From assembly GCA_021373255.1 (NCBI GenBank), contig JAJFTD010000199.1, positions 611 through 64,610 of the forward strand: a DNA stretch of 64,000 nucleotides, written 5' to 3'. Each line of letters begins with the position of its first letter. Positions within the stretch are counted from its first letter, which is position 1. Positions 2,883 through 18,277 of this stretch are shown here, in pieces. The notes under the pieces were generated by a model, which saw only the letters and a program-made list of their open reading frames with translations, searched no databases and was not told the DNA's origin. Made by a program: the position numbers and the translations under genes. This DNA is from a bacterium (GTDB taxonomy: Bacteria > Armatimonadota > UBA5829).

Positions 2883-3556
2883 TGACCAAGAGCCGAATCT
2901 GCGACTACTGTGGCCTGCCGTTTACGGGCAACGGTTACTCTCCCGATGGTGAGCGCCACTACTGCTGCTATGGATGCCATCTTGTCCATCAGATAGTCCA
3001 TGCCAAGTGTGAGGAAGGATTCGCTACTTGGCTTCTTCTCCGCTTAGGTATCGGCGCGTTCCTCGCAATGAACGTGATGATGCTGAGCCTTGTGCTCTAC
3101 ACCACTTCCGAAGCGGATCTTGGCGTAGCAGAAGTTCAGGGGATCCGCTGGGCGATGTTTATCCTTTCTACCCAAGTTCTAGTCATTCTCGGAAGCCCTT
3201 TCATTCTTGGCGGGCTAAGAGAACTCAGGCGAGGTCGGATCGGAATGGATATGGCCGGCGACGGTATAAACGACGCGCCAGCGCTTGCCGATGCTGATGT
3301 AGGCATAGCTATCGGAGGTGGGACCGATCTTGCCAGACAATCGAGTGATGTTACGCTGATGGGTGACGATATATCCCGCATCCCCGAGATGCTCGCGCTT
3401 TCCAGATTCACTTATCGAGTGATCAGGCAGAACCTGTTGTGGGCATTTGGTTATAACAGCGTATACTACTGGTCAGAAGTGCGGGCGTTTGCTGAGGTCT
3501 TCTACAAGCCGCTCTCCCAGCAGAACCCAAGCGACCATGCGCGCATGGCGGCTTAA
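2882..3556 (+). pseudogene. heavy-metal P-type ATPase (CopA/ZntA-like) remnant with an internal deletion of the whole catalytic core
   Basis: A Cys-rich N-terminus 'CDYCGLPF...HYCCYGCH' is followed by 2 TM helices ending '...RRGRIGMDM'. The reading frame then jumps directly to the hinge motif '[19 protein letters not shown]' and '[12 protein letters not shown]'. The DKTGT phosphorylation domain and the other domains are absent, about 450 aa in all. The start codon overlaps the upstream stop (TGATG). Confidence 0.6.
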
Positions 3557-4580
3557 GGAGAGACTCGGATACAGGCTTATAGCTGATAGACTGACTGAAC
3601 TTGAAATTCCTACTCCGTCAGGCAAGATGGGCTGGTCAGCATCCACTGTTTATTCTCTCATTGGCGAAAAGGATAAGCTTCTACAATATGCTGGCTACAG
3701 CATCTGGAACAGAAGAAATTGCCAGGACGAGGACGGCGTAGTCAGACGTAGCACTTCCGAGTGGGTTGTCACCCAAGAAGCTCATCCAGCAATCATAAGT
3801 AAAGAAGAATGTGAAGACCTTATTGCATTGGCAAGACAAGTAGACCCCCAGCGCAAGGCAACAAAACCTATTTCACGTTTTGCCCTCTCAAGTGGGCCTA
3901 TGGTGTGTGCTCATTGCGGAAGCAGATATGCAGGGGCAAAGCGCCATGGTGGAGATTATTATGCTTGTGGGGCACACCTCTACAGACGTGGGGCAGGTTG
4001 TGGCAGATCCTGGTATATTCCAAAGGAACAGTTCGAGACACTTATCTTTGAGAAGCTCCTAAGCAGGCTTTCGGATGATAATGGAGATCTTTCACGCTGG
4101 ATTGATGAGGTTAATCAAGAGATAGATGCTGAGTGGGAGAAGTTTGCTGCTACCTCAGCTGAAAGAAGGAAGCAAATAGCCGATCTCGAGAAGCAGATGA
4201 GCAATCTTCTAGATCTTGCTGCATCCGGCACTCTTGTCCCTGAGATGGAGCAGAAGATAAAGGAGATATCAGATGTTATTGCCAGACTAAAGCGTCTGGA
4301 GTCGGTTCCAAGGCCAAGCAGGGTTACGGTTGAGGAGATACGGGAAAGCAGGGATACAATCGTTGCTTCCTTTAGGTCGGCTAAGCCTGGAAGACGAAAG
4401 GCAGTTCTTTCTCAGTATGTGGTTAGGATCAGCGTGGATTCCAATGCTCGTGTCGTTGAGGCCCAGTTGGTAGACCCGAGATGCCCTAAAAAGCAGCGAG
4501 GGTCGTCGGAGTTAACCGACGACCCTCATATACAGTTCAATGGTAGCCCCGAAGGGATTCGAGGGAATGGCCACATTTGA
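3447..4580 (+). pseudogene. large serine recombinase, N-terminally truncated: recombinase domain and zinc ribbon are present, the catalytic resolvase domain is missing
   Basis: Homology to the full recombinase at 22209-23906 begins near 3540 ('[16 protein letters not shown]...PTPSG...LLQYAGYSIWNRR' against 'WRLGEKAGPDVIAKRL...PTPRG...LLQYAGVGIWNRR'). The zinc ribbon 'CAHCGSRY...YYACG' is present. No Y-x-R-V-S catalytic region is found. Confidence 0.65.
4541..4561. repeat. 21-bp direct repeat TGGTAGCCCCGAAGGGATTCG, left copy, putative attL core
   Basis: It is an exact match to 23860-23880. It overlaps the last codons of the truncated recombinase. Confidence 0.7.
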
Positions 4581-4945: not shown

Positions 4946-7711
4946 ATGCTTGAGAAGGACACTCGCCAACTACTAATAGACAGACGACTGCATCAGGCTG
5001 CATGGGGCGTGGATGACTCGTCCCGCGTCAGCCAGGAACTGCTTGTCCGCTATTCCCCGGAAGCTCTGCTCAGTAGCACCAACCACGGCTTCTGCGACTA
5101 TGTTCTCCTCGACAGGACAGGGACACCCATCGCGTTAGTAGAGGCGAAGAAGACAGCGCGGGACGCTTTGGTCGGCAAACAACAGGCCTCTGACTATGCT
5201 GATGCCATTCTGCGGGAGACTGGCCGAGAGCCATTCATTTTTATGACCAATGGCCCTGAGATCTGGTTCTGGGATCGGAGTTGGGCGGGTCCCAGACCTG
5301 TGCAGGGCTTTCTGAGCTTGGATGATCTTGAGGCCAGGCAATTCCAGAATGCAAATCGCCTATCTCTCCGCGCGACAGAAATTGACAACTCAATAGTCGA
5401 CCGGGACTACCAGATCGAAGCGATCAGGAGGGTTTACGAGAGGCTTGAGGCCAAGCGCCGGAAGTTTCTGCTTGTGCTAGCCACCGGCACCGGTAAGACT
5501 CGCATAGCAATGGCATTCATTGATGGGCTCATGAGAGCCAATTGGGTGAAGCGTGTGCTCTTCCTGGTTGACCGCCGAGCGCTGGCTGACCAGGCTATGG
5601 ACGACCTCAAGGAGCATCTGCCGTCGATTACTCGGGCTCGGATTGAAGCCGGTGAGATCGACACGGGCGCTCGGGCTTTTGTTACCACATACCCGTCTAT
5701 GATGCAGGCGATGGACAGCGTGTCAGTGGGCTTCTTTGACCTCGTGATCTGCGATGAGTCACATCGATCCATCTACAACCGCTACAAAAGACTGCTCGAT
5801 TACTTCGATGCATATCAGCTCGGGCTCACCGCCACCCCGGTAGACTTCATAGAGCGTAACACGTTCAGTCTCTTCGAATGTGACACCAGGCTTCCCACAT
5901 TCTCCTATCCGTTCGAGGATGCCGTCAACAACACGCCGCCGTATCTGACCGACTATAAAGTCTATTCCGCGCAGACGCGTTTCCAGCTCAGGGGGATTAA
6001 GGCCCACGATCTCCCGCCGGAGATTAAGCAACAGGTTGAGGCCCAAGGGATTACGCTTGATGAAATTGACTTCGAGGGCACCGACCTTGAGCGCCGAGTG
6101 ACCAACGCCGGCACTGACGAAGCTCTGGTTCAAGAGTTCATGGATATCTGCATCAAGGATTCCACCGGCACTCTGCCCGGTAAGAGCATCATCTTCGCCA
6201 TATCTCACCGGCACGCCATGAACCTCTATAAGGCCTTTGAAAGGCTTTACCCAGAGTACAGAGGGCGCTTGGTGGAAGTTATCGATTCCCACATGGAAGG
6301 CGCTGAGCGGATGCTCAAGCGCTTCAAGAACGAGAACTACCCGCGCGTGGCGATATCGGTGGACATGTTGGACACCGGCGTCGATATCCGGGAAGTGGTT
6401 AACCTCGTCTTTGCAAAGCCGGTCTACAGCCGCGTGAAGTTCTGGCAGATGATCGGGCGCGGAACCCGCCTGCTAGAACCGAGTAATATGAAACCCTGGT
6501 GCAAAGAGAAACCGCACTTCCTGATTATCGATCACTGGGATAACTTCACCTACTTCGAGATGACCCCGGAAGGGCACACACCGGACGCCAGCGAGGCCCT
6601 GCCTGTGCGCAGGTTCAGGACCCAGATCGATCTAATGGAACTGCTTCAGGGCTTGGGAGAAAGCGACAAGGCATTTCAACTCGGTCGCGAGCTGCGGGCG
6701 ACCATTGAGCTTCTGCCATCAGGTTTTGCCGAAATCAGTGCAGCCCACGCCGATATCGAGCAAGCAGCGCAACCGACATTCTGGGCTTGGCCGGGGGCGC
6801 CCGAACTGACTCACTTGCGTGCGAAGATCGCCCCTCTGTGCCGCTTCCTGATGGATGTCGACGAAGCCGCTATGGTGTTTGCCCTCAAGACCGAGCGCCT
6901 CGCTTTGGGACACCTGCAAAATGATGAGGCTGAGATAGAGCGGCAGAAAGAGCGAATCCGGGCAGACCTCAGACTTTTGCCCACAAACCTGCGAGAGGTC
7001 AAGGTCCACGAACGTGAGCTTATGGACGCAATTGCGGAGCCGTTCTGGGCCACACTCGACTATGATCGGATACTGAAGCTCCGGGACACGTTCGCGCCGC
7101 TGATGCGCTACCGGCGGGCGAATGGGCGGTCACTGATTGAGTTGAATCTGGAAGATACGGTCATTGATCGCCGGTGGATTGCTTTTGGCCCGGGCGGTGA
7201 GGGCGCATATGTGGAGAGCTACCGCGAGGAAGTGGAGGCACGGATTCGCGAACTGGCGGAATCCGACCCCACGATGCAGAAGATCAAGCGCGGCGAGCCC
7301 ATAACTGAGCAGGACCTGCACAATCTCGCTGAAACGCTGGATCAGGCTGATCTGTTCATCACCGAACAGAACTTGAAAGCAACCTATGGCGTGGATAGGG
7401 CTGGGCTGGTAGACTTCGTGCGGCACGCGCTGAATCTGGCTCAGCTAAAGACACAGGCCGATGAGATCGGAGAGGCATTCGACAGGTTCATTGCGGAACA
7501 TCAGAGCTACAGCGCCGATCAGATTCTGTTTATCAGGGTGGTGCGTTCGGTAATCGTTCACGAAGCTGAACTTGACCGACCTGCCAGGCTGACATACAAT
7601 GACTTGTTTGAGCCGCCGTTCACTCGCTTTGGCCGCAATGCAGTTGAGCGGCTCTTTACTCAGGAACAACTCGATGAGCTACTCGGATTTGTGGAACGGC
7701 TTGTTGCATAA
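4946..7711 (+). CDS. hsdR: type I restriction enzyme R subunit (HsdR)
   Basis: The N-terminal nuclease region 'DYVLLDRTGTPIALVEAKK' is present. Helicase motifs are 'LVLATGTGKT', 'VICDESHR' and 'QMIGRGTR'. Length is 921 aa. Confidence 0.85.
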   Translation: MLEKDTRQLLIDRRLHQAAWGVDDSSRVSQELLVRYSPEALLSSTNHGFCDYVLLDRTGTPIALVEAKKTARDALVGKQQASDYADAILRETGREPFIFMTNGPEIWFWDRSWAGPRPVQGFLSLDDLEARQFQNANRLSLRATEIDNSIVDRDYQIEAIRRVYERLEAKRRKFLLVLATGTGKTRIAMAFIDGLMRANWVKRVLFLVDRRALADQAMDDLKEHLPSITRARIEAGEIDTGARAFVTTYPSMMQAMDSVSVGFFDLVICDESHRSIYNRYKRLLDYFDAYQLGLTATPVDFIERNTFSLFECDTRLPTFSYPFEDAVNNTPPYLTDYKVYSAQTRFQLRGIKAHDLPPEIKQQVEAQGITLDEIDFEGTDLERRVTNAGTDEALVQEFMDICIKDSTGTLPGKSIIFAISHRHAMNLYKAFERLYPEYRGRLVEVIDSHMEGAERMLKRFKNENYPRVAISVDMLDTGVDIREVVNLVFAKPVYSRVKFWQMIGRGTRLLEPSNMKPWCKEKPHFLIIDHWDNFTYFEMTPEGHTPDASEALPVRRFRTQIDLMELLQGLGESDKAFQLGRELRATIELLPSGFAEISAAHADIEQAAQPTFWAWPGAPELTHLRAKIAPLCRFLMDVDEAAMVFALKTERLALGHLQNDEAEIERQKERIRADLRLLPTNLREVKVHERELMDAIAEPFWATLDYDRILKLRDTFAPLMRYRRANGRSLIELNLEDTVIDRRWIAFGPGGEGAYVESYREEVEARIRELAESDPTMQKIKRGEPITEQDLHNLAETLDQADLFITEQNLKATYGVDRAGLVDFVRHALNLAQLKTQADEIGEAFDRFIAEHQSYSADQILFIRVVRSVIVHEAELDRPARLTYNDLFEPPFTRFGRNAVERLFTQEQLDELLGFVERLVA

Positions 7712-7723
7712 AGAGGACTACCA

Positions 7724-9244
7724 ATGGCAAGGGAAGACTGGAAAGCAAAGATCGACCGGCTGTGGAACCTGTTCTGGTCGGGAGGCATAGCAAACCCGCT
7801 TTCGGCGATAGAACAGATATCCTATCTGATCTTCCTGAAGCGCCTCTCTGACCTCGACGACCAGGAGATAAAGGACAAGAAGCGTACGGTGTCCAGGTTC
7901 GAGGGGAACGAGCACTGCAAGTGGTCGTACATAAAAGACCTGAGTTCGGCGGATGAGGCGCTGCGAATCGTCCGTGATGAAGTCTTTCCATTCCTCAGAA
8001 GCCCTAAGGTAGGCGATGAGCTCTTCGCGCGAGCGATGCGGGATGCAGTTTTTATCATCCCTAAGCCCTCCCTTCTGCAGGGCGCGATAGACATCATCAA
8101 CGATATCGATATTACCGGGCTCGATGTGGACACTCAGGGCGAGATCTACGAGACTCTACTAGGAGAACTGAGCCAGTCCGGCAAGAACGGCCAGTTCCTG
8201 ACCAAGCGCCATATCGTGCGGACAATTGTGGAACTGGTAGACCCACAGCCTACCGAATACATCTGCGACCCAGCCGCAGGCACTGGTGGCTTCCCTATTG
8301 CTGCGTTCCAGCACATGGCTTACGAACGGACGCCGGGGGACGTGAGGATCAAGCTTCCCGATGGGACTCCACACAATCTGTTTCCGGTCTGGGACGACAA
8401 ACCATCCTGCGCGCAGTTCGTTGGCTACGACTTCGATACCACAATGGCCCGCCTCGGAATGATGAACATGATGCTCCACGGAATCGAGCATCCTTACTTC
8501 CTGTATCAGGATACTCTGTCCAAGACATTCATGCCGGAGCGCTCTAGCTTCGATATAATTCTTACGAATCCACCTTTCACGGGCAGCGTAGATATATCTG
8601 ATGTAAACGAAGACCGAATGCCGATCAAGACGCGAAAGACAGAGCTGCTATTCATTCAGCTCTGCTTGTCCCTGCTCGATATCGGCGGGCGTTGTGCGAT
8701 TATTGTGCCCGAGGGCGTCCTATTCGGCTCAAGCACTGCTCACAAGGATCTCCGCGAAAGACTTGTGAATGAAAATCAGATCGAGGCCGTGATCTCACTC
8801 CCTGCAGGATGCTTCAAGCCGTACACCGGCGTAAAGACTTCCATCCTGTATTTCACGAAGGGCGGCAGCACAGATAGAGTCTGGTTCTACGAGGTTACCG
8901 GCGATGGCTTTACTCTCGACGACAAACGAAATGATGACCCCTCGAACAACGATCTCAAGTACGTGCCCAATGCCTACCGATGCTTTGCGAAAGGTGAGTC
9001 AATTGATTGGAAGTCCGAGGAGGACAAGGCGAAAGCCGAGGCCCGGCAGTGGTGGGGGGAGTTGGAGCAGATCGTTGAAAGAGGTTACAATCTGACCGCT
9101 GGGGCTTATGCGCCAGTGATCCACGTCGCAGCGGAGCACGACAAACCGCGAGATATTATCCAACGCATAAGGAGTCTTGAGGCAGATATATCGGATAGAC
9201 TGGATCAGATTGACGTAGCCATTCTGGAGGCTACAGCCGAATGA
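7724..9244 (+). CDS. hsdM: type I RM N6-adenine DNA methyltransferase (HsdM)
   Basis: Carries the SAM motif 'CDPAAGTGGF' and the catalytic 'NPPF' motif. It lies immediately downstream of hsdR. Confidence 0.85.
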   Translation: MAREDWKAKIDRLWNLFWSGGIANPLSAIEQISYLIFLKRLSDLDDQEIKDKKRTVSRFEGNEHCKWSYIKDLSSADEALRIVRDEVFPFLRSPKVGDELFARAMRDAVFIIPKPSLLQGAIDIINDIDITGLDVDTQGEIYETLLGELSQSGKNGQFLTKRHIVRTIVELVDPQPTEYICDPAAGTGGFPIAAFQHMAYERTPGDVRIKLPDGTPHNLFPVWDDKPSCAQFVGYDFDTTMARLGMMNMMLHGIEHPYFLYQDTLSKTFMPERSSFDIILTNPPFTGSVDISDVNEDRMPIKTRKTELLFIQLCLSLLDIGGRCAIIVPEGVLFGSSTAHKDLRERLVNENQIEAVISLPAGCFKPYTGVKTSILYFTKGGSTDRVWFYEVTGDGFTLDDKRNDDPSNNDLKYVPNAYRCFAKGESIDWKSEEDKAKAEARQWWGELEQIVERGYNLTAGAYAPVIHVAAEHDKPRDIIQRIRSLEADISDRLDQIDVAILEATAE

Positions 9245-11148
9245 TCTCAAACCCTTGGGAGCAGAAGCCCGTCCGTGAAGTATGTGAGTTCATCCGTGGC
9301 TTAACATTTAGTCCGTCCGATGTAACAACATACCAGTCTGATAACAACATTGCGTGTATGCGCACGAAGAATGTTCAGAGCCGACTTGACCTATCTGACA
9401 CCATTTATGTACCAAGAGAGCTAGTTCGGGATCCAAAACAGATGCTTCGGCGTGGGGACATGCTCATATCCGTCGCTAACAGCAGTGAGCAAGTCGGTAA
9501 GTGTTGCCTCGTTGAGGAGTTGCCTTTTGAAGCTACACTTGGTGGATTCATTGCGGCCGCAAGAGCTGATGAAGCCTTGATGGCACCGCGTTTCCTCTAC
9601 TACTGGCTGAGTTCGCCGTGGATTCAGGCAAAGCTACGGCGGACGGCTCGAAAAACAACTAACATAGCGAACCTGCCATTGAGCGATGTTCAACGCTTGA
9701 TTATGCCTGTACCTCCCCTTGCGGAACAGCACAGCATCGTCGATATCCTCGATGCCGCCGATGAAGCCCGCCGCCTACGCGCTGAAGCTGATGGGGAGAT
9801 GAAGAGACTCATCCCGGCGCTGTTTGATGAGATGTTTGGAGACCCGGGTGTAACTTCGAAACAACGCGAACTAATCGAATGCGCGCATTTTGTTAGCGGA
9901 GGCACTCCTTCGAAGACCGAACCACGCTACTGGTCCGGCAATGTGCCTTGGGTATCACCCAAAGACATGAAGGTCGAGGAGCTTTGGGATGCGCAGGACC
10001 ACATCAATGCAGAAGCGGTTCAGTCTGCTGGACTCAAAGTGATTCCACAAGATAGCGTCTTGATCGTCGTGAGAGGTATGATACTGGCACATACGTTGCC
10101 GATTGGACTGAACAGAGTTCCAGTTACTATCAATCAAGATATGAAAGGCCTAATGCCTCGCTCGAATGTGAGTCCAGAGTTTCTGCAGTGGGCACTGCTT
10201 GCCCAGCGTGCGGAGATACTACGAAGCGTGCGCACCGCAGCCCACGGAACTAAGCGGTTGGAAACTGATTGGCTCACCAGTATCCGTTTGCACATTCCCC
10301 CGCGCCCGCTCCAGCGCCAGTTTGCTGCTCATGTCACAGAAATCCGCGCCATCCAAGACCAGCAGGCAAAGAGCCGTGAGGAACTGGACGCGCTATTCGA
10401 GTCTCTATTGCATCGAGCACTTGCGGGAGAGCTGACCGGAGGGACGGCCGAGACACAGACGTGGGCCGGGGCAGATATGCACGGACGTGACTTGACGAAT
10501 TTCACTCTCACAGGCAAAACCATGCGAAGAGCCAACTTGAAAGGCAGCAGATTGTGCGGAGCAATGCTTGCTTCAGCCGATCTTACCGAAGCAGTTCTGG
10601 AACACGCCGATCTTTCTGGTGCAAACTTGGCGGATGCCCAGTTGGGCTGGACAAAACTTAGGGGCGTGAACTTGCAAGATGCTAATCTTGAGAATGCCAG
10701 TCTAATCGGTGCCGACCTGCGGGATTCCAGCTTGGTTGGATGTAAGCTTTCTGGCGCTAATCTGACGTTGGCAAGGTTGGATAACCTTGATCTTTCCATG
10801 CTTGACCTAACGAATGTCAATCTGCGCGGTTCCAGTCGCGACGGATGCAAGATAGGCGATCTACACTTGGCAAGCGCTAAGCGTCGCCCTATTTGGTGGA
10901 GACTTTCAGATAGCCAGCGTTCAGTATGGAGCGCTATCATGCTTATCAAAGGGATATTCGAGGTGAAAGATGTGCTGGACGAACTTCGCTATTATCCTGG
11001 AGACTGGTCCAATAGCGAGCATATTCGTGGCACGCTCGATCTACTGGTGAGCCTGGCTGTACTGATAAAGGTGGACCGACGCGAAGCGTTTGGCTGGCGT
11101 AGATTCGATCCGGACACAGACCAGGAGGTAGTCATTGAGGATATATAA
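9241..11148 (+). CDS. hsdS: type I RM specificity subunit (HsdS) fused to a C-terminal pentapeptide-repeat domain
   Basis: Two target-recognition domains are separated by the conserved 'LPPLAEQHSIVDILD...' region and followed by 'LPPRPLQRQFAAHV...'. Then come 17 consecutive A(D/N)LXX pentapeptides (about 10573-10830) and roughly 105 aa of unknown sequence. The start overlaps the hsdM stop (ATGA). Confidence 0.75.
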   Translation: MISNPWEQKPVREVCEFIRGLTFSPSDVTTYQSDNNIACMRTKNVQSRLDLSDTIYVPRELVRDPKQMLRRGDMLISVANSSEQVGKCCLVEELPFEATLGGFIAAARADEALMAPRFLYYWLSSPWIQAKLRRTARKTTNIANLPLSDVQRLIMPVPPLAEQHSIVDILDAADEARRLRAEADGEMKRLIPALFDEMFGDPGVTSKQRELIECAHFVSGGTPSKTEPRYWSGNVPWVSPKDMKVEELWDAQDHINAEAVQSAGLKVIPQDSVLIVVRGMILAHTLPIGLNRVPVTINQDMKGLMPRSNVSPEFLQWALLAQRAEILRSVRTAAHGTKRLETDWLTSIRLHIPPRPLQRQFAAHVTEIRAIQDQQAKSREELDALFESLLHRALAGELTGGTAETQTWAGADMHGRDLTNFTLTGKTMRRANLKGSRLCGAMLASADLTEAVLEHADLSGANLADAQLGWTKLRGVNLQDANLENASLIGADLRDSSLVGCKLSGANLTLARLDNLDLSMLDLTNVNLRGSSRDGCKIGDLHLASAKRRPIWWRLSDSQRSVWSAIMLIKGIFEVKDVLDELRYYPGDWSNSEHIRGTLDLLVSLAVLIKVDRREAFGWRRFDPDTDQEVVIEDI

Positions 11149-12724
11149 GTTGTGGTTAGAGGACTACTACAACCTCAAGGATTGCACCATCCGCTTCAGG
11201 GACTGCGACTCGATATATGGGTCCGCCAGTATAAGGTTTTTTGTTGGGCTTAATGGGTCAGGGAAATCGCGAGCACTTGAGGCCATCGGCCTCATATTCA
11301 GCCACCTCTCCGCTGACCGCTGTCCTGGGATCGGTTTCGAAATAGATTATGAGCTGAATGGAAGGCAGATCCGCGTTTCTACTCGCAAGGGAAAGATCCT
11401 TGACAGGATCGGCGTTGCACTGATGACTCGAGAGTCGGCAGACGCCGAATGGGAGGATCAGGAAGTTTGGGCTTCGTCCGGCACCGGCATTGTGCCCACC
11501 CTAGTGGTAGGCTACTCTACGGGTCCGACAACGGGTCTGCCCTGGACAATGGTCCAGTCAATCGACAAACGCGCGAAGGACATCCGCGAACCAGAGTCCA
11601 GATCTGGAGGCGATTACTCCACTGAGGAACTGGCTGAGGATCAGCAGAAATCTGCCGACCAACAAGATGTCTACTATGCCGAGTCCAACACGATCTTCTT
11701 GGGTGGCGATGACGCGCTATGTGCAGTGATACCTCTACTTGCCCACGATGGGGTCGCGCCGGAAGAGGTAAAGCGTTACAAGCGTCGACGTAATGGCGTG
11801 ATGGATCGGGTCGGGCTTGACCGCGATGAGCCGCTTCAGGCCTTTTCCCTGCTAGTTGCGGGAGACTGGAGAACAAAGCTCTCCCCACGGCGGAGGACAG
11901 CGCTTAGTCGCCTGTTGCGTCGAGCGCACGGCATAGTCCCGGTTGACGTAGATTCTACTGATAGCGTGCCTCGAACTTCAGACAGCGAGGAAGCACTATC
12001 TGACTTCTGCGCGGCATTCGACATTGACCCGGAATTTCAGGACGTGGTCCTGAAGAAGCTCTATCCAAGACCTCTGGCATTCTTTCGTGAGCTGCTAGCT
12101 TGGAAACGCCAAGGCGCGCTTAGGGAGATCCACTTGGTGCTAAAGAAAAGCGACCCGACCGTCAGGGCACTCTTGCCGGAAAACGCCCTCTCGGACGGCG
12201 AGTACTTATACCTTGGCAGGAACGCCTTGCTGCTGATGGTGCGTGAGACGCCCGAGAGTCTGGTCCTGTTCGACGAACCGGATACACATTACAATGACCA
12301 GTGGAAGAAGGAGATGGTTCAGGACATTAGGCGTTGCCTTAGGGATGTAGACCCCGGATACTCCAAGAGCAGCTATCTGACTGAGGTCTTGGTAGCTACT
12401 CACTCCGACCTAACTCTGACTGATGCCGACCCGAGACAAGTTTACTACTTCGATAAGGGCCAGGTGCGCCCGTCGGTCCCAATCCTCTCATTTGCTGCCG
12501 ACAGAGATCAGGTATCGAAAGCTCTTTCAAATTCCGATGGATCGGTGCGCAGCTACTCGGAGCTGATGGTGGAACGCGCTCTAAGAGGAAAGAGCGAAGA
12601 GCGTGTAAGGGAACTACTGGATATTACCGGCCCTGGATTCACGCGCTACTTGCTCCGCAGGAAACTGGCTAGTCTAACTGGCGATAGCAATTCCGGAGGC
12701 GAAGATGCTTCTTCGTCTGAATAG
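11135..12724 (+). CDS. AAA_15/AAA_21-type ABC-like ATPase, Septu PtuA-like
   Basis: Walker A is 'GLNGSGKS'. Walker B and the D-loop are 'LVLFDEPDTH...VATHS'. The start is TTG, with an RBS 'AGGAGG' 6 nt upstream. The gene is followed by an overlapping HNH gene. Confidence 0.55.
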   Translation: MRIYKLWLEDYYNLKDCTIRFRDCDSIYGSASIRFFVGLNGSGKSRALEAIGLIFSHLSADRCPGIGFEIDYELNGRQIRVSTRKGKILDRIGVALMTRESADAEWEDQEVWASSGTGIVPTLVVGYSTGPTTGLPWTMVQSIDKRAKDIREPESRSGGDYSTEELAEDQQKSADQQDVYYAESNTIFLGGDDALCAVIPLLAHDGVAPEEVKRYKRRRNGVMDRVGLDRDEPLQAFSLLVAGDWRTKLSPRRRTALSRLLRRAHGIVPVDVDSTDSVPRTSDSEEALSDFCAAFDIDPEFQDVVLKKLYPRPLAFFRELLAWKRQGALREIHLVLKKSDPTVRALLPENALSDGEYLYLGRNALLLMVRETPESLVLFDEPDTHYNDQWKKEMVQDIRRCLRDVDPGYSKSSYLTEVLVATHSDLTLTDADPRQVYYFDKGQVRPSVPILSFAADRDQVSKALSNSDGSVRSYSELMVERALRGKSEERVRELLDITGPGFTRYLLRRKLASLTGDSNSGGEDASSSE

Positions 12725-13769
12725 ACCAACTTGCCAGCATGAGTTACGGTGCGTCTCTTGCATGCTCAGTCAGGTATTTGGCTATCTGGCAGAGCAGGAG
12801 AGCACAGCTCTTGACAAAGATGATCTAGAGAAAGCGGTCCACGTGTCAGCGGTCTTGCTTGGCCGGCCGAAGTTCATTGAATATCTCAATACGATTTTGC
12901 AGGAGAGCATGGATGATCGAAAGTGCCTTTGGAACGCCTTTCTCCACGATGTCGACTACCTGAGTCAGAGGACCAGCGCGGAGTTCACACTGGCGTTCGA
13001 CACGTTGCCGGAGAGCATACGTGCCACCACGCGCGAGCTGCTGGGTTGGCTCTATGACGATGTGTTTGTAGATGGATGTTTTCGTGGACTGCCCACCGCT
13101 AATGGGAAGGACCTTAACCGTGCTGTCTATTTCGATTCGCACGAAAAGGCCAACCCCCGGGCATCCAAGATCTGCCCGGTGTGCCTGCAGCCTATCAACG
13201 AGCTAGCCAACGCTGAATGCGATCACTTTCTACCGAGAAACCATTATCCTGCCCTGGCGATCCATCCCGATAATCTGGCCTTTGCCTGCGGCGGATGTAA
13301 TGGCAAATATAAACTAGCGCAGGACCCTCTCAGGGAGGGAACTACAGGGAGTCGGTGTCTTCTTGATAGCTACCTACCATATGAGCGCCCGGCTGAGGAC
13401 GAAGTTGATCTGCAGTTTCAAGTGGACAGCACGTTTCGCACTGCCACGCTGTTTGTGGCGCATCCGCAAGATGACGGACACGCAAGTGAGCGCCTAGGGA
13501 ATCTCGAAAGGCTCTACAGACTATCTAGGAGATTCAGCAGTTTCTTACCTGACACGTACTGCGAGCTTGCGGATCAGATACGGATCGCCATAGGTGAGGG
13601 GCGCGAAAGGGACGTGGTGCTAGGCCAACTGCAGAGCATAGGCAGATCACGCCTGCCGGACTACTACCTGAAGAGCCGGCTGGCGAGGTGGATTGCTGGC
13701 ACTGATTTTGACCAGTTCTATCAGTGCTACCTAGATCCCGACTGGATAGTCTCCTGGAGGCGAAGATGA
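12705..13769 (+). CDS. HNH endonuclease, Septu PtuB-like
   Basis: The HNH signature is 'CPVCLQPINELANAECDHFLP...HPDNLAFACGGCN'. The gene overlaps the ATPase gene by 20 nt. Confidence 0.55.
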   Translation: MLLRLNRPTCQHELRCVSCMLSQVFGYLAEQESTALDKDDLEKAVHVSAVLLGRPKFIEYLNTILQESMDDRKCLWNAFLHDVDYLSQRTSAEFTLAFDTLPESIRATTRELLGWLYDDVFVDGCFRGLPTANGKDLNRAVYFDSHEKANPRASKICPVCLQPINELANAECDHFLPRNHYPALAIHPDNLAFACGGCNGKYKLAQDPLREGTTGSRCLLDSYLPYERPAEDEVDLQFQVDSTFRTATLFVAHPQDDGHASERLGNLERLYRLSRRFSSFLPDTYCELADQIRIAIGEGRERDVVLGQLQSIGRSRLPDYYLKSRLARWIAGTDFDQFYQCYLDPDWIVSWRRR

Positions 13770-14671
13770 GCGATATCAAGCTATTCCGCATGGACAAGAA
13801 CTCCGTAACTGAGATCAAAGGCACATCGGTGGCTTTGGAGAAATCCCTGCAAGTCCTGATAGAGGAGCACCTTGAGGAGTTCTTGGGAGTCCGGTTCCTG
13901 GCAAGTGAGTTCACGACTGGCCCCAAACACGGCGGCCGCATCGACACATTAGGCATCGACGAAAACGGCTGCCCGGTGATTATCGAATATAAGCGGGCTA
14001 TCAACGAGAACGTTATCAATCAGGGCCTGTTCTATCTCGATTGGCTGCTGGATCATACGGGCGAGTTCACCTTACTCGTAATGAACAAGCTGGGGAAGGA
14101 CGTTGCCGATTCTATCGCTTGGAACATACCAAGGCTGCTGTGCATTGCCGGTGATTTCACCAAGTATGACGAGCACGCAGTCCAGCAGATCGGCCGCAAC
14201 ATCGAGCTCATTCGTTACCGGCACTATGGCGACCTGTTGCTACTCGACTTGGTAAACGCGGCCCGCACAGAATCCGTCCAGGAGTCAGCGCAACCCAGTG
14301 GGGGGAAGCAGAAGACCTGGGATAAGACCGTGTCTGAGCAGTTGGAGCAGGCCGACCAAGGCACAAAAGACCGCTTTGAGAGTATCAAGGCTTACCTGCT
14401 GGCCTTGGGCGACGACGTCCAGATGAACACGCTCAAGCTCTATGTGGCGTTCAAGAAGATCAAGAATTTCGTGTGCGTGCAGGTCCAGCCAAAAGTCATC
14501 ACGCTGTATCTCAGGCTAGACCCTGCGTCGGTTGAGATAGAAGACGGCTTCACAAGAGACGTCAGCAAGATTGGACACTGGGGCACTGGCGACTTGGAAG
14601 TGGTCATTCGCTCTGACGATGACTTTGAGAAAGCACAACCCTTATTGGCGAAGGCCTACGAGTTAAGCTAG
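13766..14671 (+). CDS. PD-(D/E)xK nuclease-fold protein with a C-terminal domain that resembles DUF5655 from memory
   Basis: The core 'GGRIDTLGIDENGCPVIIEYKR' gives D...E-x-K. The RBS and start context 'GGAGGCGAAGATG' is identical to that of the HNH gene. Confidence 0.45.
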   Translation: MSDIKLFRMDKNSVTEIKGTSVALEKSLQVLIEEHLEEFLGVRFLASEFTTGPKHGGRIDTLGIDENGCPVIIEYKRAINENVINQGLFYLDWLLDHTGEFTLLVMNKLGKDVADSIAWNIPRLLCIAGDFTKYDEHAVQQIGRNIELIRYRHYGDLLLLDLVNAARTESVQESAQPSGGKQKTWDKTVSEQLEQADQGTKDRFESIKAYLLALGDDVQMNTLKLYVAFKKIKNFVCVQVQPKVITLYLRLDPASVEIEDGFTRDVSKIGHWGTGDLEVVIRSDDDFEKAQPLLAKAYELS

Positions 14672-14699: not shown

Positions 14700-15578
14700 A
14701 TGGGCCAGTTGAACTACCGCAAACACGAGCCGTTATCGCTGAAGAATCACCCAGATTTCGACGAGAAACGGCTCCAGGGCGTAATCGAAGAAGACCCCTC
14801 CATACTTGGACTCGGCGATCTGGAGGTCAGGGACGTAGAGCGAATCCAGCCCAAGGCGGGGCGGCTCGATCTGCTGCTCCGAGATCCCGAGACGGGGAAG
14901 CGCTACGAGGTCGAGATCATGCTCGGCGCGACTGACGAAAGCCACATCATCAGAACCATTGAATACTGGGACATCGAGCGAAAGCGTTACCCCCAGTATG
15001 ATCACTGCGCTGTGATCGTGGCCGAATGTGTCAATTCCAGATTCCTCAACGTGATCGGTCTCTTCAACAGTGCCATTCCAGTCATCGCAATACAACTCAA
15101 TGCCCTGAAGCTCGGTGATGACATAGTTCTCAGTTTCACGAAGGTCATTGACGAGGCCGCCTTGGGACTGGACGACGAAGACGAAGGCTCTGGCGGTAAG
15201 AGTGTCGACCGAGCTTACTGGGAGACAAAGGGCTCGAAGAAGTCGGTGGCGATTGTCGATGAATGCCTGGAGATCCTTCGAGAAGTTGATCCCCAATTGG
15301 GGCTAAATTACAACAAGAACTACATTGGCTTGGCCAATAGGCACGGCGTTAACAACTTTGTAGTGTTCCGCGCCAAGAAGAACTTCATCCGCACCGAGGC
15401 TAGGGTGCCCGACCAAGAGTCCTGGAAGATTCGGCTTGAGGAGGCTGGTATTGTGGTGCTGCCTGGCGTCACGATTCGAGAGAGGCTGCATTTCCGCTTG
15501 ACCAGCAAAGACATCAAAGCGAATCGCGAAATGCTGAAGGAGCTCTTCCAGACGGCGTACGCCAAAGATCAGGAATAG
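14700..15578 (+). CDS. paralogous nuclease-like protein ('GRLDLLLRD...YEVEI') with a similar C-terminal domain
   Basis: Its architecture parallels the preceding gene. An RBS 'AAGGAG' is present. Confidence 0.4.
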   Translation: MGQLNYRKHEPLSLKNHPDFDEKRLQGVIEEDPSILGLGDLEVRDVERIQPKAGRLDLLLRDPETGKRYEVEIMLGATDESHIIRTIEYWDIERKRYPQYDHCAVIVAECVNSRFLNVIGLFNSAIPVIAIQLNALKLGDDIVLSFTKVIDEAALGLDDEDEGSGGKSVDRAYWETKGSKKSVAIVDECLEILREVDPQLGLNYNKNYIGLANRHGVNNFVVFRAKKNFIRTEARVPDQESWKIRLEEAGIVVLPGVTIRERLHFRLTSKDIKANREMLKELFQTAYAKDQE

Positions 15579-16009: not shown

Positions 16010-17773
16010 ATGACAACTATGGAAACCCCGGACCTTGGTGAACAAATGGACTATGCCAAGACAATAGGAGAACTGGGCGATGTAGTCATGCTTGCGGCCC
16101 ACTCAATGCATGCTAAGCTCGACATCAGCGTTATTCCGCCAATGCGTCGCGTAGCTTGGCCTGCTTGGGATGGCTTTCTGCCCTGGCGATATCCTGACGA
16201 AGCTTATGAAAGCATGGCTGTGTTAGTACGAACAGCGGGCCGGTCGGATGACTGGCTCAGGATGGGGTTCACCGGTCAATCGGGAGCGTCCTCCTACGCG
16301 GCGGAAGAGCACCTGCGCACGTGGAACACCCGTCGCAGCAAGGACCCGGACAAGGCAGCATTTGCCGACGATGTGTGCCGCAACCGATGGCCGCTTGTGG
16401 GTATTGACGAGCTGGCTAACCGTGTGGACGGGCTCGCACGGTATCTTGAAAAGAATGCACCATCGCTGCAGCTTACTGGGTTTCCAGAAACGAGATACCA
16501 GGACTCATTCTGGTTTCATGCCGGATTTGCCACAGTCTATCCAACAAGACTCCCCGTGTACGTTCTGCATCATGCAAGCCCCGCAGACACCTACACGTAC
16601 TTGTGGCCCCGCCAGCCGGCTGCCAGTCTTGACGTCGGTGAGTTGCGGACTCTATTACCTACCGCATTTGGTGAGGGTCCCGGGTTCTGGTATGGTTCGG
16701 GCTTTCGCGCTTACACCTGTGACTGTGAGTTGGTGCAGTGTGTTCCGTACCCTCAGTCGGCTCTATTGGAGTGTTTTACGAGCGCAGATGAGTTGTTGAT
16801 CCCGCGTCTGCGGACGAAGGTCATTGAAATCGGTCGTGCGATTCTTGCGGAACTGTCTAGTTCTCTAACCTCAAGAAACCCGCAGAGCCTTAGACATCGA
16901 TGCGTATCGATACTGACCGAAAGCCTTGATGCGAATGAGTTCGACAGTCTGGCGCTGGCGGATTATGGGATGACCCACAGCCTGGGGCTTGGTTACTCCG
17001 CACTGGGGTGCTACAATCTGGTTCACGGGGGTTTCCTCAGCAACCTCATCACGCTGATTGGCCATTGCGAGGAAGAACTTGCGGTCGGCCGCCTCTGGCA
17101 GACTCGACAGGCTATTGCCGGCGCTTTCTCCAGTGCCATTGCATTCGATGGTTTCGCTCCCGTGCGGTTCTGGTATGACGAAATTGATGGAACAGAGGAT
17201 CAGATCGCTGTCGACCGGGCATATGAAGTGTTCCACTCTCGCGCAAGCCAAGAGAGGGCATTCTGGGACTCATTCCGCCGTTGGATGATTGGGGTTCGGG
17301 ATGAGTTCTACACAGAGATATTTGGGGAGCGAGTCAGACGCCGCAACCAGCCCGAGTTTGAGGCCTATATGCGACAGATGGCAAGACTGGCAGCGAGTTC
17401 CGTAGAACTGACAGGCCAGCTTCCACAGAGCCGGGTCTTTCTGGAAGGTCAAGCTGATACTTGCACTTCTGTCCAGCCCACCATTAACCAGCCTGACCAA
17501 GGCGGCTCGAGGCACCAGTTCCGCCACTGGGACAACTATCGCCAAGTCGAGCGAGATGGCGTCACATATTCCCTTTCCCCCGCGCAGGCTCAGGCCGTCA
17601 GAGTACTTCTCGAAGCACGCGAGGCAGGAGAACAAACCTTATCGGCAGCCACGCTTCTTTCCCGTATGGGGGAACTTGCTCCACTAAGAATTAGCGAGAT
17701 ATTCAGAAGCAATGATCCTCGTAAAGCATTGGTCAAACGGATCGCCAAAGACTCCTATGAGCTGAATATCTGA
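16010..17773 (+). CDS. hypothetical protein of 587 aa, function unknown
   Basis: A long ORF in the same orientation as the element cargo. No recognisable motif. Confidence 0.5.
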   Translation: MTTMETPDLGEQMDYAKTIGELGDVVMLAAHSMHAKLDISVIPPMRRVAWPAWDGFLPWRYPDEAYESMAVLVRTAGRSDDWLRMGFTGQSGASSYAAEEHLRTWNTRRSKDPDKAAFADDVCRNRWPLVGIDELANRVDGLARYLEKNAPSLQLTGFPETRYQDSFWFHAGFATVYPTRLPVYVLHHASPADTYTYLWPRQPAASLDVGELRTLLPTAFGEGPGFWYGSGFRAYTCDCELVQCVPYPQSALLECFTSADELLIPRLRTKVIEIGRAILAELSSSLTSRNPQSLRHRCVSILTESLDANEFDSLALADYGMTHSLGLGYSALGCYNLVHGGFLSNLITLIGHCEEELAVGRLWQTRQAIAGAFSSAIAFDGFAPVRFWYDEIDGTEDQIAVDRAYEVFHSRASQERAFWDSFRRWMIGVRDEFYTEIFGERVRRRNQPEFEAYMRQMARLAASSVELTGQLPQSRVFLEGQADTCTSVQPTINQPDQGGSRHQFRHWDNYRQVERDGVTYSLSPAQAQAVRVLLEAREAGEQTLSAATLLSRMGELAPLRISEIFRSNDPRKALVKRIAKDSYELNI

Positions 17774-17902: not shown

Positions 17903-18277
17903 TTGGGAGGATTAGAAGCCCTGAGAGAGCCTTGCCGGGCCTGCCTCTCGGGGCTTTTCTACTTCTCTGTAAGGCGATTAACGATGTGTGGTAAGCATCA
18001 GGAAATCAAAGTGATCATGGAGTTGGCGGATTCCGCAATCCCGTCGGATGCGGACACTGTCGCTGACGCGCTCGCCCTCGACTTGCAGTCGGACGTCGTG
18101 ACGCGCTGGAGCGACGAAGTCCGGGAGGCCATCGCTTGCTCCAAGCGCATTGCAAATCCACTGAGCCCGGTGCAGGCCAACTTGGCTGCGCAGAGAAGAG
18201 ACGAGATTCAAGCCAGGATCACCTTACTAGAGAGGGAGTTGCTGGAACTAAGGAGCGTAGACTATGAGCATAAATAG
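17903..18277 (+). CDS. hypothetical small protein
   Basis: The ORF ends by overlapping the start of the primase gene. Confidence 0.3.
   Translation: MGGLEALREPCRACLSGLFYFSVRRLTMCGKHQEIKVIMELADSAIPSDADTVADALALDLQSDVVTRWSDEVREAIACSKRIANPLSPVQANLAAQRRDEIQARITLLERELLELRSVDYEHK

What the first reader, a model, noticed from the sequence alone, without database searches (positions are those of the whole stretch)
9241..11148. HsdS specificity subunit with a C-terminal pentapeptide-repeat domain
A canonical two-TRD HsdS of about 400 aa continues without a stop into 17 perfect A(D/N)LXX pentapeptide repeats and then about 105 further residues of unknown sequence.

Pentapeptide-repeat proteins (Qnr, MfpA) are DNA mimics. 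A DNA-mimic module tethered to the specificity subunit of a type I RM system is unusual. It could modulate DNA binding or act as a decoy against anti-restriction proteins such as Ocr.
Basis: seen in the sequence. Interest (0 to 1): 0.55.

Follow-up and report, generated by a model that had tools for sequence, protein, structure and literature searches.

The report
HsdS with pentapeptide spacer and effector-linked tail
A restriction-enzyme specificity subunit really is fused to a pentapeptide-repeat domain, but the conserved and probably functional part is a small C-terminal tail that always accompanies a neighbouring ATPase–nuclease pair, so the repeat is best read as a one-off rigid spacer rather than a DNA mimic.

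Summary
The 635-aa ORF (9241-11148) is real and uninterrupted in two assemblies. It has three parts: a two-TRD type I HsdS core (aa 1-405), 27 in-register pentapeptide repeats (aa 411-545; only 7 are strict A[D/N]LXX, not 17) and a ~90-aa tail (aa 546-635).

The tail, not the PRP, is the conserved feature. It ends the S protein directly upstream of a distant PtuA-like ABC ATPase + HNH pair in 7 of 7 independent loci with a close ATPase relative. In a second clade, which includes Herpetosiphon aurantiacus pHAU02, it ends an extra HsdM-like protein in the same position. It is absent from five control type I loci that lack this ATPase.

Linkers between S core and tail are 17-65 aa, unrelated and low-complexity in the other six S proteins. 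Only the window lineage has a PRP there. In two loci the M-S(tail)-ATPase-HNH cassette has no HsdR nearby.

Best reading (inferred, not shown): the tail couples the methyltransferase core to a Septu-like effector, and the PRP is a lineage-specific ~34 Å rigid spacer. The DNA-mimic idea is not excluded but lacks support. The tail fold is unresolved (low pLDDT; no Pfam, PDB or Foldseek match). This looks like a new variant of RM-embedded Septu-like defence, of moderate interest.

The parts
4946..7711 (+). hsdR (921 aa), type I restriction subunit with EcoEI_R_C domain (type IB-like)
   Evidence: Pfam ResIII 2.3e-37 and EcoEI_R_C 9.4e-25. PADLOC REase_I 1e-157. The DESH, GTGKT and D..EAK motifs are intact.
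7724..9244 (+). hsdM (506 aa), N6-adenine methyltransferase; overlaps hsdS by 4 nt
   Evidence: Pfam N6_Mtase 1.2e-55 and HsdM_N 4e-14. The NPPF motif is intact.
9241..10455 (+). hsdS core, aa 1-405: two target-recognition domains plus the two conserved helical regions
   Evidence: Pfam Methylase_S. PADLOC Specificity_I up to 1e-53 with full-length coverage. AF2 pLDDT above 95. 46% identical to P0122 and other ~400-aa HsdS proteins.
10471..10875 (+). Pentapeptide-repeat domain, aa 411-545: 27 pentads in one register (about 7 coils, about 34 Å); unique to this lineage
   Evidence: Pfam Pentapeptide 1.8e-23. Register, strict-repeat count and charge. Closest solved PRPs are Np275/276, All3740 and designed beta1. 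No DNA-level tandem repeat. GC3 is the same as the S core and tail.
10876..11148 (+). Conserved C-terminal tail, aa 546-635, plus stop codon. Motif: [KR]R.IW..LS..QR.VW ... L.LLV.LG.LIK ... WRR.DP followed by an acidic end. Predicted as three helices plus a beta-hairpin.
   Evidence: 43% identical to the P0122 tail. Tail HMM gives E of 2e-24 or better in 7 independent loci, always at the C-terminus of the protein abutting the ATPase gene. Also present on M-like proteins in L010/L011/L012 and on Haur_5275. No Pfam, PDB or Foldseek match. AF2 pLDDT is only 49-64.
11122..11127 (+). Shine-Dalgarno AGGAGG for the ATPase gene, embedded in the last codons of the tail
   Evidence: Read directly from the sequence. 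It lies 7 nt before the TTG start at 11135.
11135..12724 (+). PtuA-like ABC ATPase (529 aa); overlaps the hsdS stop by 14 nt
   Evidence: PADLOC PtuA1 1.5e-32. Pfam AAA_21 and AAA_15. All 11 PDB profile hits are PtuA or retron-PtuA, at 2e-6 to 8e-3. Walker A, Walker B and LSDGE are intact. The N-terminus aligns with homologues.
12705..13769 (+). HNH nuclease partner (354 aa; NCBI aa starting at 12762), PtuB/PDC-M01B-like
   Evidence: PADLOC PDC-M01B 4e-13 and PtuB 2.5e-7. Pfam HNH 9e-4, below the gathering score. The CxxC..DH..N..CxxC motif is intact. Homologues follow the ATPase in L001, L003, L004, L005, L010, L031 and others.
13724..14671 (+). DUF5655 / PDC-S18 gene. It belongs to the R-M-S backbone rather than to the tail/ATPase module.
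   Evidence: PADLOC PDC-S18 9e-148. It follows a tail-less S directly in L028.

Best explanation
The gene encodes the specificity subunit of an intact type I (IB-like) RM system that is fused, genetically and probably physically, to a Septu-like effector pair.

The protein has three modules:
- an ordinary two-TRD HsdS core;
- a ~34 Å pentapeptide-repeat beta-helix;
- a conserved ~90-aa tail.

Shown: the tail is the family signature. It sits at the C-terminus of whichever methyltransferase-core subunit is encoded immediately upstream of a PtuA-like ABC ATPase + HNH nuclease pair. That subunit is S in the window clade and an extra HsdM-like protein in the Herpetosiphon clade. The tail gene end is translationally coupled to the ATPase gene.

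Inferred: the tail docks the ATPase-HNH complex onto the M2S (or R2M2S) complex. DNA-recognition or methylation-state sensing, or the integrity of the RM complex, would then control the second nuclease. Precedents are retron RT-msDNA holding PtuAB and EcoprrI holding PrrC.

Inferred: the linker between S core and tail only needs to be a tether. In this lineage a PRP domain was accreted there and acts as a rigid spacer or arm, not as a conserved DNA mimic.
For: - Architecture: ORF and domains.
- Synteny: L001 has the same R-M-S(tail)-ATPase-HNH-DUF5655 order, with a tail but no PRP.
- Tail HMM: significant (E of 2e-24 or better) in 7 of 7 independent loci with a close ATPase relative (over 500 bits). 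It is always the C-terminus of the S protein abutting the ATPase start.
- Second clade: in distant ATPase relatives the tail is on an M-like protein in the same position. L012 scores 0.013; L010/L011 score 3e-4 to 2e-3 after one iteration; Haur_5275 scores 0.06, then 5e-4, then 1e-6.
- Controls: five type I loci built around tail-less HsdS relatives (P0130, P0137, P0127, P0129, P0219) have neither the tail nor an ATPase of this family. L028 has the same R-M-S-DUF5655 backbone with both the tail and the ATPase/HNH pair missing.
- Self-contained cassette: in L003 and L004, M-S(tail)-ATPase-HNH is flanked by unrelated genes, with no HsdR homologue within about 7-10 kb.
- Linkers: 17-65 aa, unrelated and low-complexity elsewhere; the PRP occurs only in the window.
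- Coupling: SD inside the tail codons and a 14-nt overlap.
- Activity: all catalytic motifs are intact.
- Precedents: retron Ec78 co-opts PtuAB through acquired PtuA elements (PMC12819146). Septu and PrrC embedding in RM or Hma loci is documented (bioRxiv 10.1101/2024.01.29.577857).
Against: - No direct evidence of a tail-ATPase contact. No multimer prediction was possible, and the tail models have low confidence (pLDDT 49-64).
- The H-H-H-hairpin pattern and the conserved basic/Trp residues would equally fit a DNA-binding winged helix.
- Related loci were retrieved with the ATPase as bait. 'ATPase implies tail' is therefore well supported, but 'tail implies ATPase' is not. Tail-baited searches found nothing, and they were insensitive: one search did not even recover its own two input sequences, and one search found no relatives.
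- Only about 10 independent loci were examined.
- HsdR may be encoded elsewhere in the L003 and L004 genomes.
- A rigid-spacer role for the PRP is a default reading, not a tested one. A folded 135-aa domain maintained in frame could have its own function.
Confidence: 0.5

Rival explanations
1. First reader's model. The PRP is a tethered DNA mimic that occupies or competes for the DNA-binding groove of the M2S complex (autoinhibition or restriction alleviation), or acts as a decoy for anti-restriction proteins.
For: - PRPs such as QnrB, McbG and MfpA are regarded as DNA-mimic-like (PMC7261183).
- The domain is a bona fide PRP.
- It is mildly acidic, and QnrB1 itself is only modestly more so.
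- It is tethered close to the DNA-binding subunit.
Against: - It is present in only one lineage of the family. Homologous systems have short, disordered, even strongly basic linkers instead.
- It is much closer to non-mimic canonical PRPs than to Qnr, MfpA or McbG.
- It has about 7 coils (about 34 Å), no recognisable PRP dimerisation element and no Qnr-type loops.
- Mimicry by QnrB/McbG is only 'suggested', and they did not affect BREX.
Confidence: 0.15
2. The tail is a winged-helix DNA-binding domain. It adds a DNA contact or autoregulates the operon, and its link to the ATPase/HNH pair is only genetic: both were acquired together on one cassette, with no protein-protein docking.
For: - Predicted helix-helix-helix-beta-hairpin topology in two independent AF2 runs.
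- Conserved basic N-terminal KRR and wing WRR motifs.
- wHTH extensions of methyltransferase-type DNA readers are known, e.g. BrxX (PMC12839542).
Against: - No significant similarity to any HTH family in Pfam or PDB sequences, nor by Foldseek.
- The tail moves between S and M carriers but keeps its position immediately before the ATPase.
- It is absent from closely related RM systems without the ATPase.
Confidence: 0.2
3. The PRP is a sensor or bait surface for a phage-encoded protein. Binding would be transmitted through the tail to activate the ATPase-HNH effector.
For: - Repeat domains are common sensors in defence proteins.
- PRP-TIR fusions appear among the generic PRP hits (P0089, P0091, P0093).
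- The PRP sits between the RM core and the effector-linked tail.
Against: - It occurs in a single lineage.
- No partner is known.
- There is no conservation data, because the two assemblies are 99.99% identical.
Confidence: 0.1
4. Artefact. A frameshift, a missed stop or a chimeric MAG assembly joined hsdS to an unrelated PRP gene.
For: Both sources are metagenome assemblies, and read-level support could not be inspected.
Against: - Two assemblies give the same uninterrupted ORF.
- The PRP is flanked in frame on both sides by segments that belong to one protein family architecture, S core and tail.
- GC3 is uniform across core, PRP and tail.
- No SD-backed internal start at the junction.
Confidence: 0.02

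Closest known systems
Canonical type I RM specificity subunit (HsdS; EcoEI/EcoAI-type IB systems)
   Same: - Two TRDs plus conserved helical regions.
- hsdR-hsdM-hsdS operon with intact catalytic motifs.
- 43-48% identity to many ~400-aa HsdS proteins.
   Different: It carries a 230-aa C-terminal addition (PRP plus tail). None of the other 119 best relatives has the PRP, and only P0122 has the tail.
Septu (PtuA ABC ATPase + PtuB HNH), and retron I-A / Septu type II (Ec78, Ec83), where an upstream RT-msDNA module holds PtuAB
   Same: - An adjacent ABC ATPase + HNH pair.
- The only PDB sequence relatives of the ATPase are PtuA proteins.
- PADLOC PtuA and PtuB hits.
- An upstream partner module is encoded directly before ptuA, as in retron-Septu.
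   Different: - Very distant from characterised PtuA (E 2e-6 at best, core motifs only).
- The HNH protein is about 350 aa and closer to PDC-M01B.
- The partner module is a methyltransferase/specificity complex carrying a dedicated tail, not an RT-msDNA.
PrrC-EcoprrI (and RloC): an ABC-ATPase-type effector embedded in a type I RM locus and kept latent by association with the RM proteins (my knowledge; embedding noted in bioRxiv 10.1101/2024.01.29.577857)
   Same: - A second-line ABC-ATPase effector encoded inside or next to a type I RM operon.
- Proposed physical coupling to the RM complex.
   Different: - The effector is a two-protein ATPase + HNH pair, not an anticodon nuclease fusion.
- Coupling is proposed to occur through a dedicated domain fused to S or M, which PrrC systems lack.
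- The interaction is untested here.
Pentapeptide-repeat proteins: canonical (Np275/Np276, All3740, Rfr) versus topoisomerase-protecting DNA-mimic-like (MfpA, Qnr, McbG/AlbG)
   Same: Tandem A(D/N)LXX-type pentads in one register, with strong sequence matches to solved right-handed quadrilateral beta-helices.
   Different: - Embedded between two other domains of a restriction subunit.
- About 7 coils only.
- Matches the canonical group far better than the Qnr/MfpA group.

Membership tests
Type I RM specificity subunit (HsdS) | Two target-recognition domains separated and followed by conserved helical regions | tested here: met
   Pfam Methylase_S in 2 stretches. Full-length PADLOC Specificity_I alignments. 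AF2 pLDDT above 95 with TRD-helix-TRD-helix secondary structure.
Type I RM specificity subunit (HsdS) | Encoded with hsdM and hsdR that carry intact catalytic motifs | tested here: met
   The operon spans 4946-11148. NPPF, DESH, GTGKT and D..EAK are all present.
Type I RM specificity subunit (HsdS) | Directs sequence-specific methylation and restriction | not testable with these tools
   Needs a methylome and restriction assays.
Pentapeptide-repeat protein family (PF00805) | Tandem pentads with a central L/F and an i-2 small residue, in an unbroken register | tested here: met
   27 of 29 pentads in one register have a hydrophobic centre, against 2-7 in the other registers. Pfam E = 1.8e-23.
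Pentapeptide-repeat protein family (PF00805) | Right-handed quadrilateral beta-helix fold | tested here: inconclusive
   AF2 gave pLDDT below 50 for aa 404-554, because the alignment had no PRP rows. The fold is inferred only from sequence similarity of 1e-28 to solved PRPs.
DNA-mimic-type PRPs (MfpA/Qnr/McbG/AlbG) | Specific sequence relationship to the topoisomerase-protecting clade | tested here: not met
   MfpA 2e-11, Qnr 6e-8, QnrB1 3e-7 and McbG-like 5e-6, against 1e-28 to 1e-24 for canonical or designed PRPs.
DNA-mimic-type PRPs (MfpA/Qnr/McbG/AlbG) | Electronegative rod of DNA-like dimensions formed by dimerisation | tested here: inconclusive
   Net charge is -2 over 136 aa, against -6 over 214 aa for QnrB1. 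The domain is about 34 Å per monomer and no PRP dimerisation element was recognised. No reliable 3D model was obtained.
Septu (PtuA/PtuB) | Adjacent ABC-type ATPase and HNH nuclease genes | tested here: met
   PADLOC PtuA1 1.5e-32 and PtuB 2.5e-7. PDB hits are exclusively PtuA. Motifs are intact.
Septu (PtuA/PtuB) | Stand-alone two-gene system; PtuA6-PtuB2 assembly regulated by ATP | not testable with these tools
   Here the pair is always preceded by an M/S module carrying the tail. The oligomeric state cannot be assessed.
Retron I-A / Septu type II | Reverse transcriptase and ncRNA upstream of ptuA | tested here: not met
   No RT domain in the operon. The upstream genes are hsdR, hsdM and hsdS. 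An ncRNA was not searched for.
PrrC/RloC-type RM-guard effectors | Effector encoded within a type I RM locus | tested here: met
   The ATPase/HNH pair lies between hsdS and the backbone gene DUF5655. Compare L028, which lacks the pair.
PrrC/RloC-type RM-guard effectors | Anticodon-nuclease domain fused to the ABC ATPase; latent complex with RM proteins | tested here: not met
   No PrrC or RloC model appears among the 25 best of 48 PADLOC hits for the ATPase. The nuclease is a separate HNH protein. Complex formation was not testable.

The most novel reading that the evidence does not exclude
The conserved tail is a dedicated docking domain. It physically couples the type I methyltransferase core (through S or through an extra HsdM paralogue) to a PtuA-like ATPase/HNH nuclease complex. 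This would define a previously undescribed hybrid class of RM-Septu systems. In that class the DNA-recognition and methylation-state reader licenses or restrains an ABC-ATPase nuclease. HsdR would be dispensable in some members and a parallel restriction arm in others. In the window lineage a PRP beta-helix would set the geometry of this coupling, or add a phage-protein sensing surface.
Probability: 0.35. Interest if true: 0.75.

Novelty: new variant of a known kind. Interest (0 to 1): 0.5.

Why it matters
Defence systems embedded in RM operons are common. How, or whether, they communicate with the host RM complex is known for very few of them; PrrC-EcoprrI is one.

A small domain fused to the S or M subunit that tracks a Septu-like ATPase/HNH pair would be a concrete, testable physical link between first-line restriction and a second effector. 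It would also give a second example, after retron-Septu, of PtuAB being co-opted by an upstream sensor module.

Cultured carriers (Herpetosiphon aurantiacus DSM 785 pHAU02; Bacillus tropicus and B. mycoides plasmids) make this experimentally accessible.

The PRP insertion by itself is a rare domain-accretion curiosity. It could serve as a natural rigid-linker variant for probing the geometry of the coupling.

Tried and rejected
- Word-index search with PRP+tail. It was swamped by generic PRPs and missed even the self hit, so it is not usable as a negative.
- Exhaustive HMMER search with PRP+tail. The top 150 hits were all giant PRPs, and only the protein itself covered the tail.
- Tail-profile word-index search. 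No hits, not even the two input proteins, so it is uninformative.
- Tail-baited metagenome scan. 139 pattern matches, none confirmed.
- Tail alignment on viral contigs. The alignment was too divergent to build search patterns.
- AF2 with the 2-sequence tail alignment gave pLDDT 49.
- The full-length AF2 model resolved only the HsdS core. I had not included PRP rows in the alignment, so the PRP fold was not modelled.
- Foldseek of the tail model against PDB. Best E = 3.3, which is meaningless.
- Pfam and PDB sequence-profile searches of the tail found nothing significant.
- The ~950-aa ORFs convergent with the L003 and L004 cassettes are unrelated to each other, so they are not part of the system.
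- The charge argument against DNA mimicry was weakened after comparison with QnrB1.
- Internal translation start yielding a free PRP-tail protein: no SD-backed start found.
- DNA-level tandem repeat or recent expansion of the PRP: none.
- Literature searches found no description of an HsdS-PRP fusion or of the tail.


Full report
**1. Observation**

The window has a single uninterrupted ORF at 9241-11148 (+), 635 aa.

- Residues 1-405 are a textbook two-TRD type I specificity subunit. The evidence is Pfam Methylase_S, full-length PADLOC Specificity_I alignments and AlphaFold2 pLDDT above 95 over aa 1-400.
- The ORF continues in frame into a pentapeptide-repeat (PRP) region: Pfam PF00805 at E = 1.8e-23, and phmmer E = 1e-28 to solved PRPs.
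- In one register, 27 of 29 pentads between aa 406 and 550 have a hydrophobic centre. The other four registers have 2-7. The repeat is therefore real and unbroken over aa 411-545, about 7 coils or about 34 Å.
- Only 7 pentads match strict A[D/N]L, so '17 perfect repeats' is overstated.
- There is no DNA-level tandem repeat.
- GC3 of the PRP segment (0.52) equals that of the S core (0.54) and tail (0.52).
- The remaining C-terminal segment is about 90 aa (546-635).

**2. Not an artefact**

- The protein exists in two assemblies: MCE5200734.1 on a 130,878-nt contig, identical to the window, and MEN6582081.1 in Armatimonadota MAG GCA_039683435.1.
- These assemblies differ by one SNP in 7.9 kb (window 9350 T>G, I37S), and both have the intact ORF.
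- The segment after the PRP is, in frame, a domain that is fused to S subunits in other organisms (section 4). This is very hard to obtain by mis-assembly.
- No SD-backed internal start exists at the S/PRP junction.
- Read-level support could not be checked.

**3. Context**

All genes are on the + strand and tightly packed:

| Gene | Coordinates |
|---|---|
| hsdR (EcoEI_R_C, type IB-like) | 4946-7711 |
| hsdM | 7724-9244 |
| hsdS-PRP-tail | 9241-11148 |
| ABC ATPase | 11135-12724 |
| HNH protein | 12705-13769 |
| DUF5655/PDC-S18 | 13724-14671 |

- PADLOC scores the ATPase as PtuA1 (1.5e-32) and the HNH protein as PDC-M01B (4e-13) and PtuB (2.5e-7).
- A profile of the ATPase family hits only PtuA and retron-PtuA chains in the PDB. 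These hits are weak (2e-6 to 8e-3) and cover only core motifs.
- All catalytic motifs of HsdM, HsdR, the ATPase and the HNH protein are intact.
- The ATPase TTG start (11135) lies 14 nt inside hsdS. It is preceded by AGGAGG (11122-11127), which is encoded within the tail's last codons.
- Promoter-like and terminator-like matches within the operon do not exceed the shuffled expectation.
- The operon lies on what looks like an integrative element carrying serine recombinases and a D5-type primase-helicase.

**4. The conserved feature is the tail, not the PRP**

- Among the best 120 of 4,988 HsdS relatives, none but the protein itself has a PRP.
- P0122 (559 aa, S core 46% identical) ends in a tail 43% identical to the window's. 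Its linker is an unrelated 65-aa acidic segment.
- Its locus (L001) has the same R-M-S(tail)-ATPase-HNH-DUF5655 order.

Using the ATPase as bait I retrieved further loci from genomes, metagenomes, viral contigs and plasmids.

- A tail HMM is significant (E of 2e-24 or better) in all 7 independent loci whose ATPase is a close relative (over 500 bits): the window, L001/2, L003, L004, L005/6, L007 and L008.
- In each of these, the tail is the C-terminus of a two-TRD S protein whose gene abuts or overlaps the ATPase start.

A more distant clade has ATPase scores of 143-168 bits.

- There the tail is on an HsdM-like protein in the same position.
- L012 scores E = 0.013, and L010/L011 score 3e-4 to 2e-3 after one iteration.
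- Haur_5275 of Herpetosiphon aurantiacus DSM 785 plasmid pHAU02 scores 0.06, then 5e-4, then 1e-6. Its gene order is R-M-S-M2(tail)-ATPase-hypothetical.
- Bacillus plasmids show the motif only by eye.

Controls come from five type I loci built around tail-less HsdS proteins.

- Four are close relatives (P0130, P0137, P0127, P0129). The fifth (P0219) carries a different extension.
- None of the five has the tail or an ATPase of this family.
- L028 is especially telling. It has the same R-M-S-DUF5655 backbone, with both the tail and the ATPase/HNH pair absent.
- In L003 and L004 the M-S(tail)-ATPase-HNH cassette is flanked by unrelated genes and has no HsdR homologue within about 7-10 kb. The four-gene unit therefore appears self-contained, with HsdR found beside it in some loci and not in others.

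**5. The linker**

Between the S core and the tail, the other six proteins have 17-65 aa of unrelated, low-complexity sequence. The composition varies: acidic in L001, strongly basic in L003 and L008. Only the window lineage has a folded PRP there (149-aa linker, 135 aa of it PRP). Neither linker length nor linker sequence is conserved. The linker behaves as a tether into which a PRP was accreted once.

**6. What the tail is**

- Two AF2 runs agree on three helices followed by a beta-hairpin. Confidence is low: pLDDT 49 for the tail alone and 50-64 in the full-length model.
- Pfam, PDB sequence-profile and Foldseek searches give nothing significant.
- The fold is therefore unassigned. 'Winged-helix-like' is only a hint.

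**7. Mechanism**

Shown:
- the three-module architecture;
- strict positional association of the tail with the ATPase/HNH pair;
- its transfer between S and M carriers;
- translational coupling;
- intact active sites.

Inferred:
- The tail docks the Septu-like ATPase-HNH complex to the methyltransferase core. DNA recognition, methylation state or complex integrity would then control the second nuclease.
- One precedent is retron Ec78, where PtuA acquired elements that bind the upstream RT-msDNA, which sequesters PtuAB (PMC12819146).
- A second is PrrC, which is almost exclusively embedded in type I RM loci (bioRxiv 10.1101/2024.01.29.577857). Its masking by EcoprrI is from my own knowledge.
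- Canonical Septu is a PtuA hexamer that holds PtuB between PtuA C-terminal domains (PMC12065111).
- The PRP is most economically a rigid ~34 Å spacer.

I put about 0.5 on this overall reading. The architecture part is close to certain. The docking step is about even odds.

**8. The DNA-mimic reading**

The arguments against are in the first-reader verdict above. Two points carry most weight.

- The PRP is much closer to canonical or designed PRPs than to MfpA, Qnr or McbG.
- The PRP is dispensable in every homologous system.

The charge argument is weak. QnrB1 (PDB 2xtw, sequence verified) has net charge -6 over 214 aa, against -2 over 136 aa here. The literature treats QnrB/McbG mimicry as 'suggested', and these proteins did not inhibit BREX (PMC7261183). 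I leave this rival at about 0.15.

**9. Caveats**

- Sampling is ATPase-baited. The reverse implication (every tail has an ATPase) is untested, because tail-baited searches were insensitive.
- About ten independent loci is a small sample.
- HsdR could be encoded elsewhere in the R-less genomes.
- No multimer modelling was possible, and my full-length alignment lacked PRP rows, so the PRP fold rests on homology only.

**10. Novelty**

- Embedding of Septu-like and other ABC-ATPase systems in type I RM loci is known.
- I found no description of an HsdS-PRP fusion, nor of a conserved S/M C-terminal domain tracking a PtuA-like/HNH pair.
- I classify this as a new variant of a known kind, of moderate interest. 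It would rise if the tail is shown to be a physical coupler.

Noticed in passing
window 13724-14671 (NCBI start 13766); L028 7182-8111; L001 14349-15254: A DUF5655/PDC-S18 gene follows hsdS directly in a related R-M-S locus that lacks the ATPase/HNH pair. It follows the pair in the window and in L001. It therefore seems to belong to this type IB-like RM backbone as a further accessory gene of unknown role.
   Followed up: partly
window 3447-4580, 18264-20993, 22209-23906, 26216-27184(-): The defence operon is bracketed by serine-recombinase genes, and the upstream one lacks the Resolvase N-terminal domain. The stretch also contains a D5_N/DUF5906 primase-helicase, and an AbiEii toxin gene lies nearby. 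This suggests an integrative mobile element or defence island. Its boundaries were not mapped.
   Followed up: no
window 14700-15578 and 16010-17773: Two sizeable ORFs (292 and 587 aa) immediately downstream of the operon have no Pfam hits. The first also has no PADLOC hits.
   Followed up: partly
P0192, P0205, P0219 (L026 5867-7693): A different conserved C-terminal extension of about 200 aa occurs on other HsdS proteins (motif ...RAALDCYLITALKGD.NLGRTKIEKISHLMEY...). It has no Pfam match, and no ATPase follows it in L026. HsdS C-terminal extensions may be a broader, unexplored phenomenon.
   Followed up: partly
L009 2072-3976: An S subunit with a helical C-terminal extension of about 250 aa ends in a tail-like element (by eye only). 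It lies directly upstream of a distant relative of the ATPase. This is another long-linker variant.
   Followed up: partly
L032 (Herpetosiphon aurantiacus DSM 785 pHAU02, Haur_5278-5273); L031 and L033 (Bacillus tropicus pBEMB20-1, B. mycoides p362): Cultured organisms carry the variant in which an HsdM-like protein carries, or seems to carry, the tail before the ATPase and the HNH-like protein. In the Bacillus plasmids a canonical retron-type PtuA/HNH pair or an ABC-3C system lies a few kb away.
   Followed up: partly
P0089, P0091, P0093: Generic PRP hits of about 400 aa include proteins with TIR domains. Pentapeptide domains therefore do occur in other likely defence proteins.
   Followed up: no
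window 9241-11148 versus flanking genes: The whole hsdS gene (core, PRP and tail) has lower GC3 (0.52-0.54) than hsdR/hsdM (0.65-0.67) and the ATPase/HNH genes (0.60). The tail and ATPase are also much more diverged from L001 (43-44% identity) than HsdR, HsdM and DUF5655 are (66-76%). This hints at modular exchange within the operon.
   Followed up: no
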